Positions 1 to 28,347 of a stretch of DNA of 40,186 nt are shown piece by piece. This stretch comes from Bradymonadales bacterium. GTDB taxonomy: Bacteria > Bdellovibrionota > UBA2394. The notes under the pieces were generated by a model, which was not told the origin of the DNA, made no database searches, and saw only the letters and a program-made list of their open reading frames with translations. Within the stretch, counting starts at the first letter, position 1. Each line of letters opens with the position of its first letter. Location of the stretch: positions 1-40,186 of the forward strand of contig REDG01000044.1 of the NCBI GenBank assembly GCA_007693605.1, given 5' to 3'. A program made the position numbers and the translations under genes.

Positions 1-155
1 AGCGAGCATCGCAGTGTGGTTTAGATGCCACTCGAGAAGCGCAGCGACGCAGCCGACACTGCAACGCGGGAAAGGAGCGTTGCAGCCATCCTCAAATCAT
101 GTCGACCGAAGGTCGACCAGAGTGTAGGGGCAGATGGGCCTTTAGCGACACTCCC
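1..155 (+). repeat. Structured dispersed repeat, copy 1 (MITE-like; left end cut off by the window edge)
   Basis: Near-identical to 10042-10194; ends in GGGCAGATGGGCCTTTAGCGACACTCCC, also present at 18738-18765; several internal hairpins. Confidence 0.9.
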
Positions 156-1370: not shown

Positions 1371-1460
1371 CCCCAGTATAGCCTAAGCCCATTCAGCAAG
1401 CCTGCCGGAAACTCCTAATTTAATTGAAGTTTTTGATCGCATTTGATGATATGTCGCATT

Positions 1461-3239
1461 ATGGGGAATAAGAACACAAAATCAGCGAAAAAGCCGGCTA
1501 AACCGATCTCTCCGAGACCTGGCAGCCTGAAACGAAAAAGATCCAAGGCTGAGGTTTCGATGCCAGAGACCGAGTTGAAGACGAAACAAACTCGAAGAGC
1601 CGCCAAACCGATGCGAGAAAATGCAGAAAGCATGGCCAAAAGGCAGAGAGAAATCTCGGTCTCAGAGTTTTTTGCAAAGAACAGACACCTTCTTGGTTTC
1701 GACAACCCTAGAAAGGCTTTGCTCACTGCGGTAAAAGAGGCGATCGACAACAGCCTTGACGCCTGCGAAGAGGCCGGAATTTTGCCCGAGCTTCGGGTGG
1801 AGCTAAAGAGAATTGGAGCAAAGATTGTTGAAGAAAGCGAATCTGAATCGGAGAACACGAAGCCCAAGAAGAGAAAGGGTCCCGTTCCGACCGAAAGATT
1901 TGAGCTGAAGATCATCGACAATGGTCCGGGCATTCTGACCACTCAGATTCCAAAAATCTTCGGTAAACTTCTCTATGGCTCTAAGTTTCACCGACTCAAA
2001 ATGTCTCGGGGTCAGCAGGGCATCGGAATTTCGGCTGCCGGCATGTATGGCCAGATGACCACGGGAATTCCTGTTCGCATCCTCTCGAAGCTCCCCAAAA
2101 AAGATAAGGCCTATCAAGTCGATCTTAAAATTGACACCAAGACCAACAAGCCCATTGTCCTCTCAGAGAAGGAAGTACCTTGGCCAGAGAAAACGGAGTC
2201 AGGGACTTCGGTGTGTATTACTCTTGAGGGAAGGTACCAGCGCGGTCGGCAATCGATCGACGAGTTCATTCTTCAGAACACCCTGAGCAATCCCCATGCG
2301 AGCTTCCTCTTTATCGATCCAGATGCTGAAAAGTTTGAGTACCCAAGAAGCACAAGCGAAATGCCCGAGCTGCCAGCAGAAATCAAACCTCACCCCTACG
2401 GAGTCGAGCTTGGCAACTTTCACCGCCTTGCACAAGACAGCTCAGCCAAGACGCTCAAAGACTTTTTAGTGAAGGATTTCTCAAGGGTGTCTGAAAAAGT
2501 CGCTTCAGAGATTCTGACAGAAGCCGGCCTGAAGAATTCTAAACTGAAAACGCTTAGTTCTGAGAATCTGAATCTGGTGCATCAAGCCATTCCGAAAGTG
2601 GACATTAAAAACCCGCCAACTCATTGCGTCATCCCCATCGGTGAAGACCTACTGACCGAAACACTGCGGCAAAAGACCGCGGCCGAATTTTTTGTGGCCA
2701 CAACACGCAGCCCAAGCGTCTATCGCGGCAACCCCTTTATTGTGGAAGCCGCGCTTGCTTTCGGGGGTGAGCTTTCATCCGAAGAGCCCATGCAGGTTTT
2801 TCGCTTTGCCAATCGGGTGCCGCTTCTCTTTCAACCCGCCGCTTGCGCATCCGTTCGCGTTCTCACCAAAATTGAATGGAAGAAGTACGGCTTAAGTCAG
2901 TCGAAGGGCTCTCTTCCCATTGGCCCGGTGGCCGTAATCATTCATGTCGGAAGTGTGTGGGTGCCATTCACTTCTGAAAGCAAAGAAGCCATTGCCGACT
3001 ACCCTGAAATCAAACAAGAGATTCGACTGGCCATCTTAGAATGCGCTCGCAAGATGAATCTTTATCTGTCTAAAAGGCGTCGCGCTGCCGAAGCCGCCAG
3101 AAAGGCGAACTATATTGATACCTATATTCCCTATATCGGTGAAGCTCTTCAAGACATGCTAAAACTCAAAGAGGGGCAAAAAGAGAAGGTCATTATGACT
3201 TTGAGAGAAACTTTAGAAAAAACCCGAATCGAGGTGTGA
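1461..3239 (+). CDS. top6B: DNA topoisomerase VI subunit B
   Basis: GHKL motifs [55 protein letters not shown]; start uncertain. Confidence 0.95.
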
Positions 3240-3240
3240 A

Positions 3241-4356
3241 GTGGCCGTGCGAAGCAAAAAGAAAGAACCGACCGATAGGACTGCCTTAGGCAATATTGAA
3301 AAAACCGCGAAGGATGTTTACGAAAAGGCCTTGAAGAAACAGAAGCCTCAACTAAAACTTCCCGTTCGTTCTTTGAGCAATGTCCGTTATCGATCAAAAT
3401 CTGGGTTTTTAGAACTGGCCAACCAGTACAAGACCAGAACTCTGACATACAACACCGTCAAGGGCTTTGCCCAAACTCTTAAGATGATGTCCGTCTCAAA
3501 AGAACTGATCGAAACCAACGACCATGCTTCGAAGAGGGAGATGTATTATATTTCAAAAAACTGGGGGCCGGCCCGATTTGACGAACAGCCAGAGAGCGAC
3601 ACCGTCATGGACGACATTGAGGCCATGATGACGGTGAATCGAGAGCAGCTCCGATTCATTCCCGAAGAAAAGGGCGGCGAGGTTGCTGGCAAGCTGTTGG
3701 TGATTGACCGAGACCGAGAGACCAAAAAACCGATTCGCATTGACTGTACAGGCTTCGGATCTGGAGCTTACAGCATTCCCATTTCTGTGGAGCACCTTCA
3801 GTTTGAAACCAAAGCGAAGTTCATTCTGTGCATTGAAACTGCGGGAATGTTTCAAAGGCTGGTGGCGCACAACTACTGGAGAAAGGCGAACTGCATTCTC
3901 ATTTCAATGGGAGGCGTTCCGACTCGAGCATGTCGCAGGTTCGTCCGACGCTTGGCAGACGAAATGAAGCTTCCGGTTTATACATTCGTCGACGGTGATC
4001 CCTACGGAATTGCAAACATCTACCGCACTCTGAAGGTGGGATCAGGAAATGCAGCCCATATTAACCGATTCTTTTGCGTTCCTCAGGCGAAGTTCTTGGG
4101 GGTGACCCCGCAAGATATCGTTGACTACGAGCTGCCAACTCACCCTCTGAAAGATGTTGATATCAAGCGCGCCAAAGACGCTCTGAAGAATGACCCCTTT
4201 TTCAAGGCCCATCGGGAGTGGGTCAAAGCCATCGAGCAAATGCTGAAGATGGGCGTTCGGGCAGAACAGCAGGCCCTGGCAAAACACGGCTTGAACTATG
4301 TGATTGATGAATATCTTCCGAGAAAGATTAAAAGTGCCTCTAAATTTCTTCCATGA
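3241..4356 (+). CDS. top6A: DNA topoisomerase VI subunit A (Spo11-like)
   Basis: REMYY catalytic Tyr motif, IETAG, Toprim DGDPYG, AEQQAL; starts 1 nt after the top6B stop. Confidence 0.95.
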   Translation: MAVRSKKKEPTDRTALGNIEKTAKDVYEKALKKQKPQLKLPVRSLSNVRYRSKSGFLELANQYKTRTLTYNTVKGFAQTLKMMSVSKELIETNDHASKREMYYISKNWGPARFDEQPESDTVMDDIEAMMTVNREQLRFIPEEKGGEVAGKLLVIDRDRETKKPIRIDCTGFGSGAYSIPISVEHLQFETKAKFILCIETAGMFQRLVAHNYWRKANCILISMGGVPTRACRRFVRRLADEMKLPVYTFVDGDPYGIANIYRTLKVGSGNAAHINRFFCVPQAKFLGVTPQDIVDYELPTHPLKDVDIKRAKDALKNDPFFKAHREWVKAIEQMLKMGVRAEQQALAKHGLNYVIDEYLPRKIKSASKFLP

Positions 4357-7646: not shown

Positions 7647-8518
7647 TGCATCGAGTTCCTAAAATGACATGGATTTCAGGCTTCTTCGTGCTGATTTTTT
7701 TGCTTTGCGCCTTCTTTGCCCCATGGGTTGCGAACGAGCCTGGGGTTCGATCTTTTCAACTCTATCCGATAGGGCCCGACACCCCTCCGATCGCGCAGAT
7801 GCTCGACCGAGAGCCTCCGGGGACGATGAGCCTCGACGGTCGCCAGTATATTCTTGGTACGGATCATGTGGGGCGCGACCTTTTCGCTCGAATCGTGCAT
7901 GGAATTCGAAACTCCCTTCTGTTTGCCCTGGCCGTTGTGAGCATTTGTATTTTCTTGGGCATTGTTCTTGGGGGCATTATGGGGCTCTATGGGGGCAAGG
8001 TTGATCTCATTCTTCAAAGATTTATGGAGATTGTGGGAAACTTTCCGATCTTCCTTCTGCAGCTCACTCTGCTCGCCTTTTTTGAGCGGAATTATTGGAT
8101 ACTTTTGTTTGTGATGATTTTGGCGGGATGGATTCCCTACTGTCGATTTGTGAGAGCAGAATTTTTAAAGCTCAGGTCTCAGGACTTCGTGCAATCCGCC
8201 TACGCTTTGGGGGCGAGTCGATTCCGAATTTTTCGAAAGCATCTGCTGCCCAACTCTTTGACCCCGGTGATCACCTTTGTTCCTTTTGACCTGGCACAGG
8301 TCATTGTTGTTTTGGGAGCCCTGTCTTTCTTGGGCTTTGGAGAGCCCATTGATCAGGCGAGTTTGGGCGAGCTTCTGCGACAGGCGAAAGACAATTTTCG
8401 AGTAGCCTGGTGGATTGCCGTTTTTCCGGCTTCCGCCATCTTCCTGCTAACGCTGTCTCTGGCACTCTTTGGGTCCTCCATTCGAGATCTTCTTGATCCG
8501 CGATATGCAGAAAATTAA
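7643..8518 (+). CDS. Peptide ABC transporter permease (OppC/DppC-like)
   Basis: LGTDHVGRDLFARIVHG; DFVQSAYALGAS...HLLPN; RDLLDPR. Confidence 0.92.
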   Translation: MMHRVPKMTWISGFFVLIFLLCAFFAPWVANEPGVRSFQLYPIGPDTPPIAQMLDREPPGTMSLDGRQYILGTDHVGRDLFARIVHGIRNSLLFALAVVSICIFLGIVLGGIMGLYGGKVDLILQRFMEIVGNFPIFLLQLTLLAFFERNYWILLFVMILAGWIPYCRFVRAEFLKLRSQDFVQSAYALGASRFRIFRKHLLPNSLTPVITFVPFDLAQVIVVLGALSFLGFGEPIDQASLGELLRQAKDNFRVAWWIAVFPASAIFLLTLSLALFGSSIRDLLDPRYAEN

Positions 8519-8522
8519 GATC

Positions 8523-8562
8523 GGATGGGCCCTTAGCGATTCGGTGGGGAGTGTGATAAAGG
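8523..8562. repeat. Degenerate remnants of both termini of the dispersed repeat, adjacent to each other
   Basis: GGATGGGCCCTTAGCGA resembles the right end; GGGGAGTGTGATAAAGG resembles the left end (10004 GGGAGTGGTGATAAGGG). Confidence 0.5.
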
Positions 8563-8568
8563 AAGGCC

Positions 8569-9044
8569 TGAGTTGAAGGCTATAAGCCGGGTTCTGTCGA
8601 CTCCGAGAGGAGGCCATTCTTAGTTTCCTCTCAGGAGTGGACGATCATCAATCTGGAGAGTCTGTTACCAAACTCCCTCAAGCGACCTACCTCAGAACCT
8701 CAGAAATTTCATCAAGAGAGAGTCTTCTCTTGTCCGCTCACGCGGAAAGGTTCTTGTTTTGGTCTTGCACCCCATGGGGTTTAGCGCAACTGTCGTCACC
8801 GACAGAAGCCGTGAGCTCTTACCTCACGATTTCAACCTTACCTGATCCCTTGCGGGCCATCGGCGGTATATTTTCTGTGCCACTTTCCGTATCTGCCGAA
8901 GCAGACCCAGGCCGTTAGCCTGCATGGTGACTCCGCAGGAGTCTCTCCTTCTGTCGAAGAGAGATCAACCCGCCGGTGCCCGGACTTTCCTCCAGCTAAG
9001 TGCGAGTCTCCTCGACCAGCCAGCGACCGTCCACCTTCAACTCA
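8569..9044 (-). ncRNA. rnpB: RNase P RNA (bacterial A-type, with insertions)
   Basis: Minus strand has GAGGAAAGTCCGGGC, GGTAAGAGC and ACAGAACCCGGCTTAT; P1 = TGAGTTGAAGG/CCTTCAACTCA. Confidence 0.97.
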
Positions 9045-9076
9045 TAAAAGCATTTGTAGCAGAACTGGGCCTAAGA

Positions 9077-9853
9077 TCAAGAGCCCACTCCGCGAAGGAG
9101 CCGTTCAGTCTCTAGGGCCTCCGGAAGCTCAGATTCTGGAAACAAGATTCGAGAGCAACTGGAGCATGTAATCAACTGATTCAATTTCTTAAGATTTCCC
9201 CTAGTCTGAGGAGGTATCTCGACAAAACAGCCATGACAAATGCTGTCTCGGACAATCGCCACCCCAGAACCCCGTCTAAGCTTCTGAACCCTCTCGTACA
9301 TCGAAAAGATGCTTTCATTGACCTTCGAGATATAACCTTCTCGCTCTTTCATTAATCGAGCCGTCTCATTAGAGCTTTCTGCCAGCTCCTTCTGTCTCTG
9401 ATCCTGGTGTTCTTGGAAGAGTTTTTGGCACTCTTCCACCGCCGCCTTTTTTTCAGCGGTCAGCTTCGATCGCTCTTCGGTGGCCAGAGTCTTTTCTTCC
9501 AACATCTTTTTGACTTCAATCAGTTTTTTTTGAAAATTTTCAAGCTCTCGACCCGCTGAGAAATCTTCTTTGGTGTTTCGAACTTCTCGTCTCTTGACTT
9601 CAGCCTTCTTCACATCTTCTTGAAGGGTAATATGCCGAAGCTCTAAGGACCTTCTCTCTCGCTCAATCTCTCTCTCTGATTTCTCAGCCAGTTTTAGATC
9701 TCTTTGAGCTTCGTTTAACTTCTTCTCAGCCGCCAAGAAGTCGGGAGCGGGCTCGCGCTCCTTTTCTCGAAGCTGAAACAAAAGAGCATCGATCTCTTGT
9801 AGTCGAATTAAACTTAGAATGGACTCTTTTAGCTCTGCGGGCTCGAATTCCAC
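9077..9853 (-). CDS. C4-type zinc-ribbon coiled-coil protein (DUF164/CT398-like)
   Basis: LQEID N-terminus, long coiled coil, CHGC...CSSCSRIL; AGGAG SD before GTG 9853. Confidence 0.88.
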   Translation of the reverse strand: MEFEPAELKESILSLIRLQEIDALLFQLREKEREPAPDFLAAEKKLNEAQRDLKLAEKSEREIERERRSLELRHITLQEDVKKAEVKRREVRNTKEDFSAGRELENFQKKLIEVKKMLEEKTLATEERSKLTAEKKAAVEECQKLFQEHQDQRQKELAESSNETARLMKEREGYISKVNESIFSMYERVQKLRRGSGVAIVRDSICHGCFVEIPPQTRGNLKKLNQLITCSSCSRILFPESELPEALETERLLRGVGS

Positions 9854-9888
9854 GAGGACTCTCCTTTTCAACAATTGAATTCGGGGGC

Positions 9889-9917
9889 AGTTTAAGAGTT
9901 GACATAATAAATGTCTA
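9889..9917 (-). promoter_or_regulatory. Putative sigma70 promoter for the zinc-ribbon gene and rnpB
   Basis: TAGACA-17 nt-TAAACT on the minus strand; overlaps the palindrome GACAT-N5-ATGTC. Confidence 0.5.
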
Positions 9918-10003
9918 TTGTTGAGTCACAGAATCCTTCGCTTGCGCGCAGGGACCCGCTAGCCGTAGGCTCTGAGGAGATTGTCGCGCGACTCCTGACT
10001 ATA

Positions 10004-10194
10004 GGGAGTGGTGATAAGGGTCCAGATACGCGAAGGCAAGGAGCGAGCATCGCAGTGTGGTTTGACGCCACTCGAGAAGCGCAGCGACGCAGCCGCCACT
10101 GCAAGGCGGGAAAGGAGCCTTGCAGCTATCCGCAAATCAAGTCGACCGAAGGTCGACCTGAGAGTGGAGGCAGATGGGCCTTTAGCGACACCTC
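10004..10194 (+). mobile_element. Complete ~190-bp structured MITE-like repeat, copy 2
   Basis: Imperfect terminal inverted repeats GGGAGTGGTGATAAGGGTCCA / TGGGCCTTTAGCGACAC; body matches 1-155; no transposase in the window, so mobility is inferred. Confidence 0.7.
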
Positions 10195-10201
10195 ACAGGG
10201 G

Positions 10202-10274
<73 letters not shown>

Positions 10275-10317
10275 CTGTCAGGGCGGCGGCTCTACACCAT
10301 GGCCAGCTCAACGGCTG

Positions 10318-10356
10318 TTGACAGATAGAATGAATTGTCATACTATTTTAGTATGA
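10318..10356 (+). promoter_or_regulatory. Sigma70 promoter with operator palindromes for the TA operon
   Basis: TTGACA-17-TACTAT; inverted repeats TGACA..TGTCA and TCATACTA-N3-TAGTATGA; ATG lies 6 nt after the -10. Confidence 0.75.
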
Positions 10357-10595
10357 AAGCCACTACCATTAAGCTCGAAGGACCTCTTCTTAAAGCCATT
10401 GAGACATCTAAGCCCAAATCAGAATCAATCTCTTCCTTTGTGCGTCGAATCATCGAGAAGTCCATTCGTCAAGACCGTATGATCGAAGCTGGAAGCGCTT
10501 ACAAAAAGTTTCTTACGGCGAATCCTGAGGAATCGAGCTGGTTAGTTGATTGGGAGGATGCTGATTTGGATGGTGGATTTGAGACTGCCCGTTGA
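10353..10595 (+). CDS. Putative antitoxin (ribbon-helix-helix-like N-terminus, acidic C-terminus)
   Basis: 80 aa; TTIKL...SISSFVRRII; WEDADL tail; overlaps the toxin start. Confidence 0.75.
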   Translation: MKATTIKLEGPLLKAIETSKPKSESISSFVRRIIEKSIRQDRMIEAGSAYKKFLTANPEESSWLVDWEDADLDGGFETAR

Positions 10596-10915
10596 GAAGG
10601 GGTGCGATTTGTTGGATTCAATTGGGTAAGGGCTCTCCGCCAGAGTTTGGCAAAACCAGGCCCGGACTCATTGTTTCGAATACGCAGCAAAATGAGATTT
10701 TGGATTCCGTCGTTGTAATCCCTCTCTCTAGTCAGCCACCCGAGATATGGCCTCTTCGAGTTAAGATTAATTTGCCGAAAAAGAAGCCTTCGTTCGTGGT
10801 CATTCCAGGAATGCGTCAGGTTAGCAAAGGTCGTTTGGGGGAGATCATTGGGTTTCTTTCTGCGAATGCAATGTCTGGAATTGATGAAGCTTTATTGACC
10901 TATCTTAACGATTAG
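10592..10915 (+). CDS. PemK/MazF family toxin
   Basis: RRGAICWI...EFGKTRPGLIVSN...VVVIPLSS. Confidence 0.88.
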   Translation: MRRGAICWIQLGKGSPPEFGKTRPGLIVSNTQQNEILDSVVVIPLSSQPPEIWPLRVKINLPKKKPSFVVIPGMRQVSKGRLGEIIGFLSANAMSGIDEALLTYLND

Positions 10916-11084
10916 GTCAGCTGACTCGGTGCAGATTTCTGAAGCAAGTTACACAAAATTGTTTATGCTCCCTTAAAATGCGCTCAATGAAGCTACTTTG
11001 CTCCACGAAGCTTCTGTTACCTATTGGAAGGACACACAGTATTCAGAATGCTGCATTCAGTACAAAACACGGAATGAGAGTCGG

Positions 11085-18480: not shown

Positions 18481-18765
18481 ATGGTCTACTAAATCCAGTT
18501 CCTTTGCGAAGGGGCGTTGGCAGGTGAAGCAGTGACTGTGCTCTTTGGCATGAGTTTTGGAAGACAGCCGATGGGGCTCTCCGAGCGGCTGGGCCAAGTA
18601 ACGAAGTAAAGTGTTTACAGCGCGAGGAGGAGCGGGCCCTGGACGATATCGAAGTTATCTGAAATTCTAGGCGGTCCCCAGCGGATGCTTCCAAAACTCA
18701 TGCTGAACTCTGAGGTCATGGGACTTGACTGAAGCGAGGGCAGATGGGCCTTTAGCGACACTCCC
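18481..18765 (+). repeat. Third member of the repeat family: same right terminus, different structured interior
   Basis: 28-nt identity with 128-155 at 18738-18765; perfect 16-bp inverted repeat at 18548-18563/18688-18703; left boundary approximate. Confidence 0.65.
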
Positions 18766-19603
18766 AAAGCAGAAAGCAATCTTGCTGCCTAAGACCATTA
18801 ACCCCAAGGCCAGAAGCAAAAGACAAAAGACGGCTTCTTTGAGCTTCGTCCTTTGTTTCGAGAATCATCAAGCCCGGTGTCTTGAGTGCGCCCGACCATC
18901 GATTGAGAATCGATTTGAGAATCTCATCACCGTGATCCCCTGAACACAAAGAGATTCGAGGCTCATAGTTTTTGATCTCTGGCTCCAATGTCTCCAAGAA
19001 GTCCTCGCTCAAATAAGGCGGATTGGAAACGATCAGATCGAAGGAGCTCTTGGGCTCATAAGCACGAAGGTCCGAATGAATCCAGTTAACCTTCTTCAGG
19101 CCAAGTCTGTCCGCATTGATTTGAGCGAGCTTCAAGGCCTCTGAACTAATATCTAGCGCGTGATAGGCCCAAGCCTCTCCAAGTCTTTTCGCCAGACTCA
19201 AGACAATGCAACCCGAACCCGTCCCGAGATCAATCAGTTCCCCTGACTTCAAGCCCTTTTCTTTCACCCAATCTAGAGCAATTTCTATCAGAGCCTCAGT
19301 CTCAGGACGGGGGGTCAGCACTGAGGAGTTCACCCGAAAACGAAGACCAAAAAACTCCTTCTCTTGCCGGAGATGAGAGAAGGGCTCTCGGTTTAATCGT
19401 CGTGAGAGAAGCTCTCTCCAGACTTTCTCAGTATCAAAGCTCAGGTTGGCATCCGTCTTGAGAACTAAGTCTTCAACAGAAATGTCCAAGGCCAAGGCCA
19501 TCAACAGGCGGGCTTCTCGGTGAGGGTTCTCGACCCCCTTGTCTTTTAAAGAATTCGCGCCTTCTTGCAAATGCGCAAGAATGGTCTTTGAATCTTGCGC
19601 CAT
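18752..19603 (-). CDS. prmC: Release factor glutamine methyltransferase
   Basis: PRPETE, DLGTGSG, SNPPY; follows prfA. Confidence 0.95.
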   Translation of the reverse strand: MAQDSKTILAHLQEGANSLKDKGVENPHREARLLMALALDISVEDLVLKTDANLSFDTEKVWRELLSRRLNREPFSHLRQEKEFFGLRFRVNSSVLTPRPETEALIEIALDWVKEKGLKSGELIDLGTGSGCIVLSLAKRLGEAWAYHALDISSEALKLAQINADRLGLKKVNWIHSDLRAYEPKSSFDLIVSNPPYLSEDFLETLEPEIKNYEPRISLCSGDHGDEILKSILNRWSGALKTPGLMILETKDEAQRSRLLSFASGLGVNGLRQQDCFLLWECR

Positions 19604-20982: not shown

Positions 20983-22529
20983 TGGTTCATACTCTCCAGG
21001 AACTCATCATTTGTCTTGGTTTTCGAGACTTTATCGAGCAAAAACTCCATGCTGTCAATCGGAGAGAGCGGCGATAGAAGCTTCCTAAGAATCCACACCC
21101 TCTGAAGAGTCTTCTCATCCAGTAGAAGCTCTTCTTTTCGCGTCCCAGAGCGGTTGATGTCCATGGCCGGAAAGACCCTCTTATCGGCAACCTTACGGTC
21201 CAGGACAATCTCCATATTACCCGTTCCCTTGAACTCTTCAAAAATGACTTCATCCATTCGACTGCCAGTTTCAATCAGGGCCGTGGCAATAATCGTCAAA
21301 CTACCCCCTTCTTCAATATTTCTGGCCGCCCCAAAAAAGCGCTTTGGTCGATGTAGGGCGTTCGCGTCGACCCCTCCCGAAAGAATCTTTCCGGAAGCAG
21401 GCTCGCAGGTGTTGTAGGCCCGAGCCAAACGAGTGATCGAATCCAACAGAATCACAACATCGTGACCATGCTCAACCAAGCGCTTCGCCTTCTCGATCAC
21501 CATTTGGGCGACTTGCACATGGCGATGAGCCGGCTCGTCAAAGGTGGAAGACACCACTTCTGCATCTACATTTCTAGACATATCGGTCACTTCTTCAGGT
21601 CGCTCATCGATAAGAAGAACCAACATCTTAATCTCCGGATGATTCTTAGAAATCGAGTTAGCAATGCTCTGAAGCAGCATGGTTTTACCCGTTCTTGGGG
21701 GCGCCACAATCAGGCCCCTCTGCCCCTTGCCAATTGGGCAAAGTAAATCCATCACCCGGCCGCCGTACTGATCCGGAAGAACCTCAAGCTTGATCTTCTC
21801 TCGGGGATAGAAGGGCGTCAGGTTGTCAAAAAGCACCCGGTGTAAAGACTTCTCGGGATGCTGGCCATTAATCTTTAGAACCTTGAGCAGGGCAAAGTAT
21901 CTCTCACCCTCTTTGGGGTTTCGAATCTGCCCACTCACGGTGTCTCCCGTCTTGAGATTCAAACGACGAATCTGATTCGGAGACAAATAGACATCATCCG
22001 GTCCGGGCAGATAACTAAAATCAGGTGATCTTAAGAAGCCATACCCGTCTGGAAGAACCTCTAAGACTCCCTCAGAATAAACGGCAATATTCTGTCTAAC
22101 GCTGGCCTTCAAGAGATCATAAATGAGATCCTGCTTTCGCATGGCGCTCGCGCCCTCAATCCCTTGAGCCTCTGCCATTTCGACCAACTCACTGGCCGGT
22201 TTCGCCTTCAAATCCTGCAGGTGAAGAACTTCTGAGCCCTCTTCTCCTGAAAGCTCTTCAGAGGCGATCAGGTCGGAAATGTCTCCGGGCGTATAATTTT
22301 CCCGCTCATGAAAGCCTCCGCCATGCCCGCCGTGTCCACCGTGCCCGCCACCGTGGCCACCGCCGTGGCCTCCGCGGCCCTTGCGATTACCGCCGCCTCC
22401 GCGATGCGAAGACCGTCGTCTCTTGTTTGATCCTCCACCACCGGACCTGTCTTCACCCATATTGGTTGGGGGCTGAACATCGATTGACTGGCCGCCGTTG
22501 TCGGCCTCATTTGAACTCATTTTTTTCAT
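20979..22529 (-). CDS. rho: Transcription termination factor Rho with N-terminal extension
   Basis: [36 protein letters not shown]. Confidence 0.98.
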
Positions 22530-22783
22530 TGGAAAGTCTCCATCCGATTAAAATTTTTCGTGAAAGCCCCACCTAGACCAGAAGATTTCAAGGCTGACTC
22601 CCAACGCCTGAACCGGGTATGATTTCAAGTATTGAATGCCCTCTTCGTTTTCCGATCAAAATGATGATTTTACGAAAGTACCTTATCCCAGGCTGATTCC
22701 CATCATGTATGTGGGCAAGAAAGGACTGTCAAGCCTTTATCTAATTGGATTATCAATAGAGAAGATGAAGTTTTCTTCCCTAA

Positions 22784-26900
<4,117 letters not shown>

Positions 26901-27048
26901 AGGCCTTCCTCTCCTGACTCTATCGTACACAAGCTTGAAGCAGCTTTCTAGAGGAACTGGCCTCCAGAGTTCAGTTTTCTGAAAAGATATCGACGGGTTA
27001 TAAGACTGTGACCAATCTCCTTAGAGTCAGATATTCGGGTGAGCGGGC

Positions 27049-27115
27049 CCTAGTGGTCCAACCGGTAAATTGCTTCCGTGTTGTGCTGAAAAAATTTACC
27101 GGTTGGACCACTAGG
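27049..27115. repeat. Perfect 23-bp inverted repeat with a 21-nt loop and CTAG near each end
   Basis: CCTAGTGGTCCAACCGGTAAATT / AATTTACCGGTTGGACCACTAGG. Confidence 0.9.
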
Positions 27116-27138
27116 CCTGTTCTCGTTAGAGTTTTGGA

Positions 27139-28347
27139 ATGTCGATTTTTGAAGCTTTTGTTTTGGTCGGAGCGGTGGTTTGGTTGGCCAATCTTTTGGC
27201 CCCCTGGGGGGCGTGGCGTACTAGAGAATGTCTGAATGCAGAGAGTTCTTCAGCCATGAAGCTGTCTGATTACCCCTCGGTCAGCATTTTGATTCCCGCC
27301 CGAAATGAGGCGCTCGTCATTGCCCAAACCCTTCGAGGGATTGAGAGGCAAACACCTGACATTCCCGTAAGGATTGTGAACGACCAGTCAACCGATGACA
27401 CCAAAGAAGTTTCTCTGAAATCAAAACTCCCCATTCAGGTGATTGACGGACTTCCTCCCCCCGCCGGCTGGGCAGGAAAACTCTGGGCTCTTGAGCAAGG
27501 CCTCAAGCATGTGGACACCGAGTTCGTTCTCATTATGGACGCAGACATCGATCTTCAGTCAGGAATTCTGGAGAAAATGATGCTTAAGGCAAGATCCGAA
27601 AACATCGATTTTCTTTCGCTGATGGCCGAACTGAACTTTGCGAGCTTTTGGGAGAGACTCTTAATGCCGGCCTATATTTATTTTTTCAAACTCCTCTATC
27701 CTTTCTCTCTGGCCAACTCTGCAAGGAGTAATTTTTCTTCGGGTGCTGGAGGATGCATTCTGGTTCGAAAAGCTGTTTTCGAAAGAATCGGAGGATATCG
27801 AGCGATAAAAGACGCCTTGATCGACGACTGCAGTCTTGCAAAAGCCGTCAAATCGGCCGGCTTCAAGACCTGGATCGGTCTCACTCGATCGGTTCAAAGC
27901 CATCGGGCCTACGAAGGTCTCGGAGAGATTTGGCAGCTGGTCGCGCGCTCAGCATTCACATACCTTCGGTATTCCGCCTTCTTGCTATTTGTTTGCAGTC
28001 TCTTGATGGTGGCTGCATTTTGGTTTCTGCCGCTCTCTCTATTTATTTTGCCTACAGGCTCAGTGCTGTTTTGGATCTCCTGTGCAGGATGCACGGCCAT
28101 GTTGGCCGCCTACATTCCCACTCTCCGCTTTTACGGTCTCTCTCCGCTCTGGAGCCTTTTTCTCCCCGTGTCGGGCAGCCTTTACCTGTCTATGACCTGG
28201 ACTTCTGCCATTTCGTATTGGCGAGGAAAGCGATCTGCTTGGAAGGGACGAGTTTACGACAAAAATCTTAGGGCCTCAGAAGACTCAGACCAAAAAGGTA
28301 ACGATAATGATGTGGGCAAAGGCGAAAAAATACATCAGGTAGGCTAG
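27139..28347 (+). CDS. GT2 glycosyltransferase, HpnB-like (hopanoid-associated)
   Basis: IPARNEA, GWAGKLWAL, DADI, LIDDCSLA, WKGRVY. Confidence 0.85.
   Translation: MSIFEAFVLVGAVVWLANLLAPWGAWRTRECLNAESSSAMKLSDYPSVSILIPARNEALVIAQTLRGIERQTPDIPVRIVNDQSTDDTKEVSLKSKLPIQVIDGLPPPAGWAGKLWALEQGLKHVDTEFVLIMDADIDLQSGILEKMMLKARSENIDFLSLMAELNFASFWERLLMPAYIYFFKLLYPFSLANSARSNFSSGAGGCILVRKAVFERIGGYRAIKDALIDDCSLAKAVKSAGFKTWIGLTRSVQSHRAYEGLGEIWQLVARSAFTYLRYSAFLLFVCSLLMVAAFWFLPLSLFILPTGSVLFWISCAGCTAMLAAYIPTLRFYGLSPLWSLFLPVSGSLYLSMTWTSAISYWRGKRSAWKGRVYDKNLRASEDSDQKGNDNDVGKGEKIHQVG

What the first reader, a model, noticed from the sequence alone, without database searches (positions are those of the whole stretch)
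1..155. Dispersed repeat whose copies differ by compensatory base-pair changes
Seen: 1-155 and 10042-10194 are near-identical, and two pairs of differences preserve pairing. C65:G79 becomes G10105:C10119 in the stem CTGCAA[C/G]GC / GC[G/C]TTGCAG. ACACT(56-60):AGTGT(121-125) becomes CCACT(10096-10100):AGTGG(10163-10167). The hairpins GTCGACC-GAA-GGTCGAC and GTGG..CCAC are conserved, with changes mostly in loops. Inference: the fold is under selection, so this is a structured RNA or ssDNA element rather than a neutral duplication. It is the best candidate for an undescribed system in this window.
Basis: partly seen in the sequence, partly recalled or inferred. Interest (0 to 1): 0.8.

Follow-up and report, generated by a model that had tools for sequence, protein, structure and literature searches.

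The report
Mobile hairpin repeat resembling ERIC
The two look-alike stretches are copies of a small mobile DNA repeat that folds into one long hairpin, tends to sit right behind gene ends, has relatives in many bacterial groups, and looks like a distant cousin of the long-known ERIC repeat of gut bacteria.

Summary
The repeat is real, but it is not a two-copy element. It is a family of dozens of copies in this genome (94 right ends). The base unit is a 124-nt rod hairpin; both window copies carry an optional 72-nt insert. One claimed compensatory pair is real but seen in only 3 of 26 copies; the other is out of register. The fold is nonetheless strongly supported elsewhere. A model finds the unit in 43 of 151 phylum genomes, a pattern finds it in many phyla, and the top 26 covarying column pairs trace one hairpin. 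Six of 13 complete copies have 5-bp target duplications, and a relative's form has ends identical over 16 nt to an IS1182 element. Right ends abut stop codons (39 of 94). Reciprocal structure models link the family weakly to E. coli ERIC; sequence-only models do not. Verdict: a MITE-like, fold-selected repeat. It is not in Rfam, was probably glimpsed in Geobacter, and this scan appears to have met it before on other DNA (e1-4479079). No transposase or transcript was shown.

The parts
1..155 (+). Copy 1 of the repeat, with the 72-nt insert; its first ~38 nt are lost at the contig start
16..31 (+). Apical hairpin of the rod (GTGG-loop-CCAC); GTAG/CTAC and GGGG/CCCC in other copies and relatives
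58..129 (+). Optional insert D in copy 1: stem 59-67:77-85 and hairpin 101-107:111-117
130..155 (+). Right end (terminal inverted repeat arm), 3 nt from the stop codon (159-161) of ORF 159-1370 on the minus strand
10004..10195 (+). Copy 2, complete rod plus insert; no outer-left end, no target duplication, last bases of the right end degenerate
10004..10029 (+). Inner-left arm, pairs with the right end
10098..10169 (+). Optional insert D in copy 2; replaces 3 nt of the base form
   Evidence: (joint 10097-10170 skips 72 nt)
10170..10195 (+). Right end of copy 2, 6 nt before the tRNA gene
10202..10275 (+). tRNA with CAT anticodon (called Met by ARAGORN), directly behind copy 2
18545..18706 (+). 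Module C, a different ~160-nt inverted-repeat element attached to a right end of the family
18740..18765 (+). Third right end; supplies the TAA stop (18752-18754, minus strand) of the prmC-like ORF 18752-19603
27049..27115 (.). Miniature form of module B, whose ~270-nt form is nested inside some copies of the family elsewhere in the genome

Best explanation
A non-autonomous, MITE-like mobile repeat whose passenger is a fold-selected 124-nt rod hairpin. SHOWN: dozens of dispersed copies. A ~20-bp terminal stem whose letters vary while pairing is kept. One strand folds better than the other. An extra 25-nt outer-left copy of the terminal repeat, with 5-bp target duplications around the unit 'outer-left end + rod'. 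Optional nested inserts (D 72 nt, B ~270 nt) and tandem arrays. Right ends flush with stop codons of genes pointing into them. INFERRED: an IS1182-type DDE transposase, not now found in this assembly, moved the unit using the right end and the outer-left end. Copies survive mainly where the target is a stop codon or gene 3' end, which leaves the gene intact. The irregular hairpin is kept because one single strand must fold for spread or tolerance; whether that strand is RNA or DNA is not shown. Effects on neighbouring transcripts, as reported for ERIC, would be secondary. ERIC is probably a distant member of the same structural superfamily.
For: Copies: 94 right ends at <=4 mismatches and 33 outer-left ends; 73 profile hits. 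Target duplication: perfect 5 bp in 6 of 13 complete copies, plus one of 7 bp. Outer-left end also in G001, G008, G012 and in 26 of 172 foreign loci versus 2 on the control side; 7 of the 26 are simply longer arms, and 9 of the 26 have >=4-bp duplications. The G001 right end is identical over 16 nt to the inverted repeat of an IS1182 element in G010 (NF033551 290.5 bits, cut-off 270); similar ends flank two more IS1182-like loci of 18 examined. IS1272 of that family has a form with a tandem 25-bp left end (PMC5678879, passages). Covariation: in a sequence-only alignment of 67 homologs the top 26 of 7046 column pairs lie on one hairpin diagonal, 21 of 23 predicted pairs show two-sided change, and G.T outnumbers A.C 110 to 19 on this strand. 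Stop codons: 39 of 94 right ends lie within -1..7 nt of a stop, versus 3 of 33 outer-left ends and 1.5% of random intergenic points; 56 of 123 foreign loci within 10 nt. ERIC: a model without E. coli sequences gives only two hits in the K-12 chromosome (E 1.9e-4, 0.17), both matching the published ERIC primers. An ERIC-only model hits family members at E down to 1.7e-9, on the matching strand.
Against: No IS1182, DDE_Tnp_1 or IS256 transposase found in G000 (90% complete). This genome's right end matches the IS1182 repeat at only 11 of 17 positions (read). 7 of 13 complete copies lack a 5-bp match, and 170 of 185 foreign loci show no duplication at the rod's own ends. No empty site was seen. 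Terminal letters vary more between lineages than one transposase family would be expected to allow. The rod is absent from 18 IS1182 loci. The right-versus-left stop bias in foreign loci vanishes when 35 nt are allowed (58 vs 46 of 123, p 0.16); it persists in G000 (41 of 93 vs 6 of 32, p 0.011). The ERIC link is weak for this genome's copies (E >= 0.2, 4 of 13 loci hit; none genome-wide), and a sequence-only ERIC profile finds nothing. All 67 aligned homologs were chosen by a structure-aware model and 43 by a motif pattern, which inflates covariation and motif conservation.
Confidence: 0.68

Rival explanations
1. A cis-acting RNA element of real function to the host (3'-end processing, mRNA stability, termination or tRNA-leader processing) that spread secondarily; mobility is incidental.
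For: Interior junctions are better conserved than the terminal letters. G.T is favoured over A.C on one strand. Right ends abut stop codons and tRNA/tmRNA genes in 5 of 31 foreign loci examined plus window copy 2. ERIC affects mRNA stability in Yersinia (PMC2229807 and PMC10969869, passages).
Against: Copy number ranges from none found to dozens between related genomes. Neighbours are unrelated genes. Genes that end at the right end transcribe the strand that folds less well (-53.5 vs -66.9 kcal/mol; covariation term -0.71 vs -4.24). Target duplications and nested inserts point to a mobile unit.
Confidence: 0.14
2. The two-sided changes are mutational: template switching between the arms copies a change from one arm to the other, so the fold is not under selection.
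For: Four single copies in G000 each carry a private change in both arms of the terminal stem, which fits one-step events. Template switching is proposed to correct imperfect inverted repeats in proteobacteria (PMC5941160, abstract). The 65:79 change occurs in one small subfamily.
Against: Template switching perfects palindromes, yet fixed mismatches persist: A.G in 30 of 31 and T.G in 29 of 31 G000 copies, and tandem G.A/A.G in 62 and 61 of 67 homologs (partly built in by the search pattern). Length stays near 124 nt across phyla. The G.T versus A.C bias is strand-specific. This mechanism may well supply the changes while selection keeps the irregular fold.
Confidence: 0.1
3. A REPIN-like element spread by the genome's RAYT (HUH tyrosine transposase) through a single-stranded DNA hairpin.
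For: G000 has one RAYT (C78:26479-27135). Its REP often lies next to copies of this family. A single-strand fold suits HUH enzymes (established knowledge).
Against: The RAYT gene is flanked by a different ~30-nt repeat. 5-bp target duplications fit DDE enzymes rather than HUH enzymes (established knowledge). The ends resemble IS1182 repeats.
Confidence: 0.08

Closest known systems
ERIC / IRU (127-bp enterobacterial repeat)
   Same: Near-identical length, a single imperfect rod, variable paired outer stem, shared junction motifs, reciprocal structure-model hits on the matching strand. The hsdR-hsdM copy also has its right end within about 4 nt of a stop codon on the opposite strand.
   Different: No sequence-level match. 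Ends are GGG/CCC with 5-bp duplications rather than TA (ERIC termini from PMC2229807, passages). It has an extra outer-left end. ERIC is reported from Enterobacteriaceae and Vibrionaceae only (PMC10969869, passage).
[quoted passage not shown]
   Same: The central palindrome given in the figure legend is the reverse complement of the apical hairpin of family member L152; intergenic, multicopy, found in related deltaproteobacteria.
   Different: Described there as a possible regulatory RNA, with no mobility analysis in the passages seen. The alignment figure could not be read as text, so identity of the whole element is not shown.
IS1182-family insertion sequences and their MITE derivatives (e.g. 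IS1272/IS1272L)
   Same: Terminal repeat letters in the G001 form, short target duplications, a 25-nt doubled left end, and insertion near gene 3' ends (PMC5678879, passages).
   Different: No transposase in the element. The rod does not occur in 18 IS1182 loci. IS1272 replaces stem-loop targets without duplication.
Other hairpin MITEs: Correia/NEMIS, RUP, RPE, YPAL, Bacillus bcr1, Chunjie
   Same: 100-200-nt multicopy intergenic repeats folding into long stems; bcr1 also shows compensatory changes (PMC3184786, PMC2229807, passages).
   Different: Those are listed for single genera or narrow groups; this family spans many phyla. Sequence relationship was not tested.
REP / REPIN with RAYT
   Same: Dispersed palindromes at gene ends; a RAYT is present in the genome.
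   Different: The RAYT has its own REP; this unit is a 124-nt rod with target duplications.

Membership tests
MITE (non-autonomous TIR element) | Terminal inverted repeats | tested here: met
   Imperfect 26-nt arms, plus a 25-nt outer-left copy
MITE (non-autonomous TIR element) | Target-site duplication | tested here: met
   Perfect 5 bp in 6 of 13 complete copies, one 7 bp; neither window copy can show one
MITE (non-autonomous TIR element) | Short, no transposase, many dispersed copies | tested here: met
   79-390 nt, 15 of 31 full copies exactly 124 nt; 94 right ends
MITE (non-autonomous TIR element) | Autonomous partner with matching ends | tested here: inconclusive
   IS1182 in G010 matches the G001 form over 16 nt; none in G000
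MITE (non-autonomous TIR element) | Empty orthologous sites in close relatives | not testable with these tools
   No other genome of the same genus is held
ERIC / IRU | ~127-bp imperfect palindrome | tested here: met
   124-nt rod
ERIC / IRU | ERIC consensus sequence | tested here: not met
   A sequence profile from 15 E. coli loci (14 ERIC, 1 not) gives no significant hit in G000 or foreign loci
ERIC / IRU | TA dinucleotide at the termini | tested here: not met
   Ends are GGG...CCC with varied 5-bp flanks; ERIC feature from PMC2229807 Table 1
ERIC / IRU | Homologous secondary structure and junction motifs | tested here: inconclusive
   The family model hits 10 of 14 ERIC loci full length on the same strand, 4 at E<0.003. 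The ERIC model hits foreign members strongly but G000 copies only at E>=0.2
ERIC / IRU | Orientation-dependent effect on mRNA stability | not testable with these tools
   No informative RNA data
REP/REPIN (RAYT-associated) | Repeat flanks the RAYT gene | tested here: not met
   A different repeat flanks C78:26479-27135
REP/REPIN (RAYT-associated) | Short REP units in doublets | tested here: not met
   The unit is a 124-nt rod with 26-nt arms and target duplications
Any Rfam 15 family | Score above gathering threshold | tested here: not met
   Window: only RNase P and tRNA; 9900-10201 none to E 10; 20 homolog loci: only tRNAs
Independent small-RNA gene | Own promoter and terminator, conserved gene context | tested here: not met
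   No plus-strand promoter-like site before copy 2 in a simple scan; neighbours differ between copies and genomes

The most novel reading that the evidence does not exclude
ERIC, the Geobacter short-RNA repeats and this family are one pan-bacterial superfamily of ~124-127-nt rods. The fold, with fixed mismatches and tandem G.A junctions on one strand, is the selected unit. It is carried by exchangeable transposon ends (IS1182-type here, TA-ended in ERIC) and docks at stop codons. This would explain why ERIC has a conserved interior unlike ordinary MITEs, and point to candidate mobilising enzymes and a shared fold-reading host factor.
Probability: 0.35. Interest if true: 0.75.

Novelty: new variant of a known kind. 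Interest (0 to 1): 0.5.

Why it matters
Hairpin MITEs are catalogued as narrow, genus-level families, and ERIC is reported only from two gammaproteobacterial families. A fold-defined relative spread over many phyla, with visible target duplications and IS1182-like ends in some lineages, makes two old questions testable: what moves ERIC-type repeats, and why their interior fold is conserved. This genome is a useful case because the family has expanded in it and carries nested modules. Practically, such repeats mimic riboswitch or small-RNA candidates in covariation screens, and here they sit at many contig ends of the assembly.

Tried and rejected
Rfam: no match. Phage and plasmid collections: no match to copy 2 or to the G001 form; no pattern match in viral contigs. 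Insert D: none in 300 other phylum genomes or in the metagenome scan. Transposases in G000: IS256, DDE_Tnp_1, DUF772 and IS1182 not found; only a RAYT with its own REP. Expression: no RNA holder listed. Of two RNA runs laid on 8400-11000, one gave 0 reads and one gave 16 partial reads on RNase P only, so the organism is not shown in them and this says nothing on transcription. The DNA run may be the window's own source and its summed depth is not a copy number. First model R1 found nothing in E. coli. R2 missed the aceF-lpd ERIC and scores window copy 2 only weakly because of the insert (E 0.01). The ERIC-only model also gave 22 bits to a plain short hairpin on both strands, so hits under about 22 bits are not specific. 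The figure 61 right-only versus 11 left-only stops was set aside as overstated, because the true left boundary lies 10-27 nt further out. The claimed 56-60:121-125 helix was rejected. Geobacter supplements: 12 of 19 files were searched without a motif hit, 7 were not searched, and the one file opened was the wrong one; the alignments there may bear on prior description.

Full report
OBSERVATION. The window is the start of contig C76 of a 2.19-Mb, 79-contig assembly. Positions 1-151 match 10042-10191 at 92%, with 16 differences over 1-155. The match begins at base 1 only because the contig starts inside the repeat; contig C8 starts with the same 30 nt. The whole element is 10004-10195, and a third right end lies at 18740-18765. 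The first claimed pair, C65:G79 to G:C, is real, but among 26 copies with that stem (8 of 34 dropped) it is C:G 20, G:C 3 and broken 3. The three G:C copies share another change, and a subfamily breaks the stem. The second claimed pair compares non-homologous bases: AGTGG(10163-10167) corresponds to 123-127 of copy 1, and columns 56:125 pair in 7 of 22 copies.

THE FAMILY IN THIS GENOME. There are 94 right-end motifs at <=4 mismatches and 33 outer-left motifs, and 73 profile hits with copy 2 as seed. Of 31 copies with both arms, 15 are exactly 124 nt; longer ones carry insert D (192-194 nt) or module B (389-390 nt). Both window copies carry D, which replaces 3 nt of the base form. D was not found in 300 other genomes of the phylum. 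Tandem arrays occur. Many copies have a 25-nt outer-left end, a further copy of the terminal repeat. Where this end and a right end enclose an element, 6 of 13 show a perfect 5-bp target duplication and one a 7-bp one. Within the genome, position 5 of the terminal stem is G:C in 24 and C:G in 7 of 31 copies, never mixed, while an A.G mismatch (30 of 31) and a T.G pair (29 of 31) are fixed. In the outer-left-bearing copies listed, the right end follows the inner-left arm at this position rather than the outer-left end. Four single copies carry private changes in both arms.

POSITION. 39 of 94 right ends lie within -1 to 7 nt of the stop codon of a gene pointing into them, against 3 of 33 outer-left ends and 1.5% of random intergenic points (own ORF calls). 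A second method gives 41 of 93 versus 6 of 32 (p 0.011). Copy 1 is 3 nt from the stop of ORF 159-1370, the third right end supplies the stop of the prmC-like gene, and copy 2 ends 6 nt before a tRNA gene. Convergent gene pairs hold 18 and divergent pairs 3 of 58 scored intergenic copies, against 82 and 148 of 494 long intergenic regions.

RELATIVES. The G001 form found homologs in 5 of 13 other genomes of the family, with the doubled left end in G001, G008 and G012. Model R1 (11 sequences) matched 43 of 151 phylum genomes; 24 held-out matches were 96.5% paired with two-sided change at all 31 pairs, on an alignment fitted to the structure. Named records came from Rokubacteria, Gammaproteobacteria, Deltaproteobacteria, Chlamydiae, CPR, Bacteroidales, Bacillota, Omnitrophota, Acidobacteriota, Verrucomicrobia and others. 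On a sequence-only alignment of 67 homologs (24 found by similarity or model, 43 by pattern), the top 26 of 7046 column pairs by corrected mutual information lie on one hairpin diagonal, and 21 of 23 predicted pairs show two-sided change. G.T outnumbers A.C 110 to 19 in the outer stem, so the strand as written in the window is the folding one. Selection by a structure-aware model and by motif inflates these figures. In foreign loci a stop lies within 10 nt of the right end in 56 of 123 and of the left in 17, but within 35 nt in 58 versus 46 (p 0.16). Flush docking at the right end is general; a direction preference is shown only in G000.

MOBILISER. G000 has no IS1182, DDE_Tnp_1 or IS256 match. 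Its one RAYT is flanked by a different repeat. In G010 an IS1182 element has terminal repeats identical over 16 nt to the G001 form's right end, with a 4-bp duplication; two more of 18 IS1182-like loci have similar ends. G000's own end matches at 11 of 17 positions. An outer-left copy occurs in 26 of 172 foreign loci (control side 2; 7 are only longer arms), 9 with >=4-bp duplications; at the rod's own ends 170 of 185 show none. IS1272, an IS1182-family member, has a form with a tandem 25-bp left end (PMC5678879, passages). The rod itself is not in IS1182 loci (0 of 18), so it is a passenger rather than an internal deletion of the IS. IS1182 mobilisation is inferred, not shown.

ERIC. The resemblance was first recalled, then tested. 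R1 found nothing in E. coli K-12. R2, built from the 67 non-E. coli homologs, gave two chromosome-wide hits (E 1.9e-4 and 0.17), both matching the published ERIC primers (19+19 and 17+18 of 22; PMC3696847 passage). It hit 10 of 14 ERIC loci full length on the same strand, 4 at E<0.003. R3, built from 12 ERIC copies, hit foreign members at E 1.7e-9, 2.2e-6 and 9.3e-5 among 36 loci and 6 of 64 further loci at E<0.001. Against this: G000's copies score E>=0.2, the only genome-wide G000 hit is another subfamily on C18, a plain hairpin reaches 22 bits, E-values are roughly calibrated, and a sequence-only ERIC profile finds nothing. The element works like ERIC and is probably a distant relative through intermediates. 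It is not an ERIC member, since sequence and termini fail the test.

MECHANISM. Most likely an IS1182-type transposase acting in trans moved the unit 'outer-left end + rod' and inserted it with a 4-5-bp duplication. Copies persist chiefly at stop codons and 3' ends, where the gene is left whole. One strand must fold into an irregular rod; fixed mismatches argue for selection rather than template switching alone, although switching (PMC5941160, abstract) may generate the paired changes. Unexplained: genes that end at the right end transcribe the strand that folds less well, whereas at window copy 2 and at two foreign loci the better-folding strand leads into a tRNA or tmRNA. RNA versus single-stranded DNA is undecided.

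PRIOR WORK. Not in Rfam 15. Ten literature searches listed no paper that defines such a cross-phylum family or links it to ERIC; the library lacks most subscription papers, and the primary ERIC papers and IS reviews were not seen. The legend of Fig. S1 in PMC2700814 (passages) gives a central palindrome that is the reverse complement of the apical hairpin of member L152, so the family was probably noted in Geobacter as 24 'short RNA elements'; the alignment could not be read. Also seen as passages only: PMC3184786, PMC2229807, PMC10969869, PMC2996986, PMC2527527, bioRxiv 10.64898/2026.09.15.751765 (nothing relevant). This scan's note e1-4479079 describes what appears to be the same family, with the same stop-codon docking; it was seen after my own counts and is not independent support.

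VERDICT. Observation partly confirmed; interpretation partly supported. New variant of a known kind (hairpin MITE, ERIC-like). Interest 0.5: the window's two copies are ordinary members of a repeat family, and the value lies in the target duplications, the IS1182-like doubled end and the tentative ERIC link.

Noticed in passing
G000:C78:26339-27164 (L021, L066): A RAYT gene (NF047646, 80.1 bits at cut-off 80) flanked by an inverted ~30-nt REP; 39 matches to that REP genome-wide, often next to copies of the studied family.
   Followed up: partly
window 18545-18706 and 27049-27115; G000 C2, C12, C31, C51, C71, C75: Two further inverted-repeat families, module C (~160 nt) and module B (~270 nt, with 67-nt miniatures), nest in or attach to the studied family.
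   Followed up: partly
G000:C18:1733-2314, 22375-22565, 26848-27189; C61:23880-24123; C75:40244-41018: Tandem repeats built on tRNA-gene fragments. C18:22375-22503 is the only G000 hit of the ERIC-built model and looks like another subfamily of the same rod.
   Followed up: partly
G000 C3, C28, C42, C50, C70 (twice), fragments on C9, C33, C44: A multicopy ~340-400-aa gene family, about 80% identical in DNA, with a C-terminal HNH-like motif (label from own knowledge, no family search); the C42 copy is interrupted by a copy of the studied repeat.
   Followed up: no
window 1443-4356: Topoisomerase VI subunits B and A in a bacterial genome.
   Followed up: no
window 10318-10915: PemK/MazF-like toxin (10592-10915) behind an 80-aa ORF without a family match, with a sigma-70-like promoter at 10318-10346, just after the tRNA.
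   Followed up: no
window 8567-9042 (minus strand): RNase P RNA class A, 476 nt against a 367-position model, so it carries long insertions.
   Followed up: no
L024, L025, L092, L093, L096: Homologs lie next to tRNA-Trp, tmRNA, tRNA-Glu (two loci) and tRNA-Met genes: 5 of 31 loci examined.
   Followed up: partly
L024, L038, L045 (G007, G011, G012): Relatives carry a different ~25-nt hairpin insert in the left arm, so modular insertion is not confined to G000.
   Followed up: no
L139, L153, L157, L160 and others (Gammaproteobacteria): A multicopy variant with 30-36-bp arms whose outer part resembles IS1182 ends, several with 4-bp duplications.
   Followed up: partly
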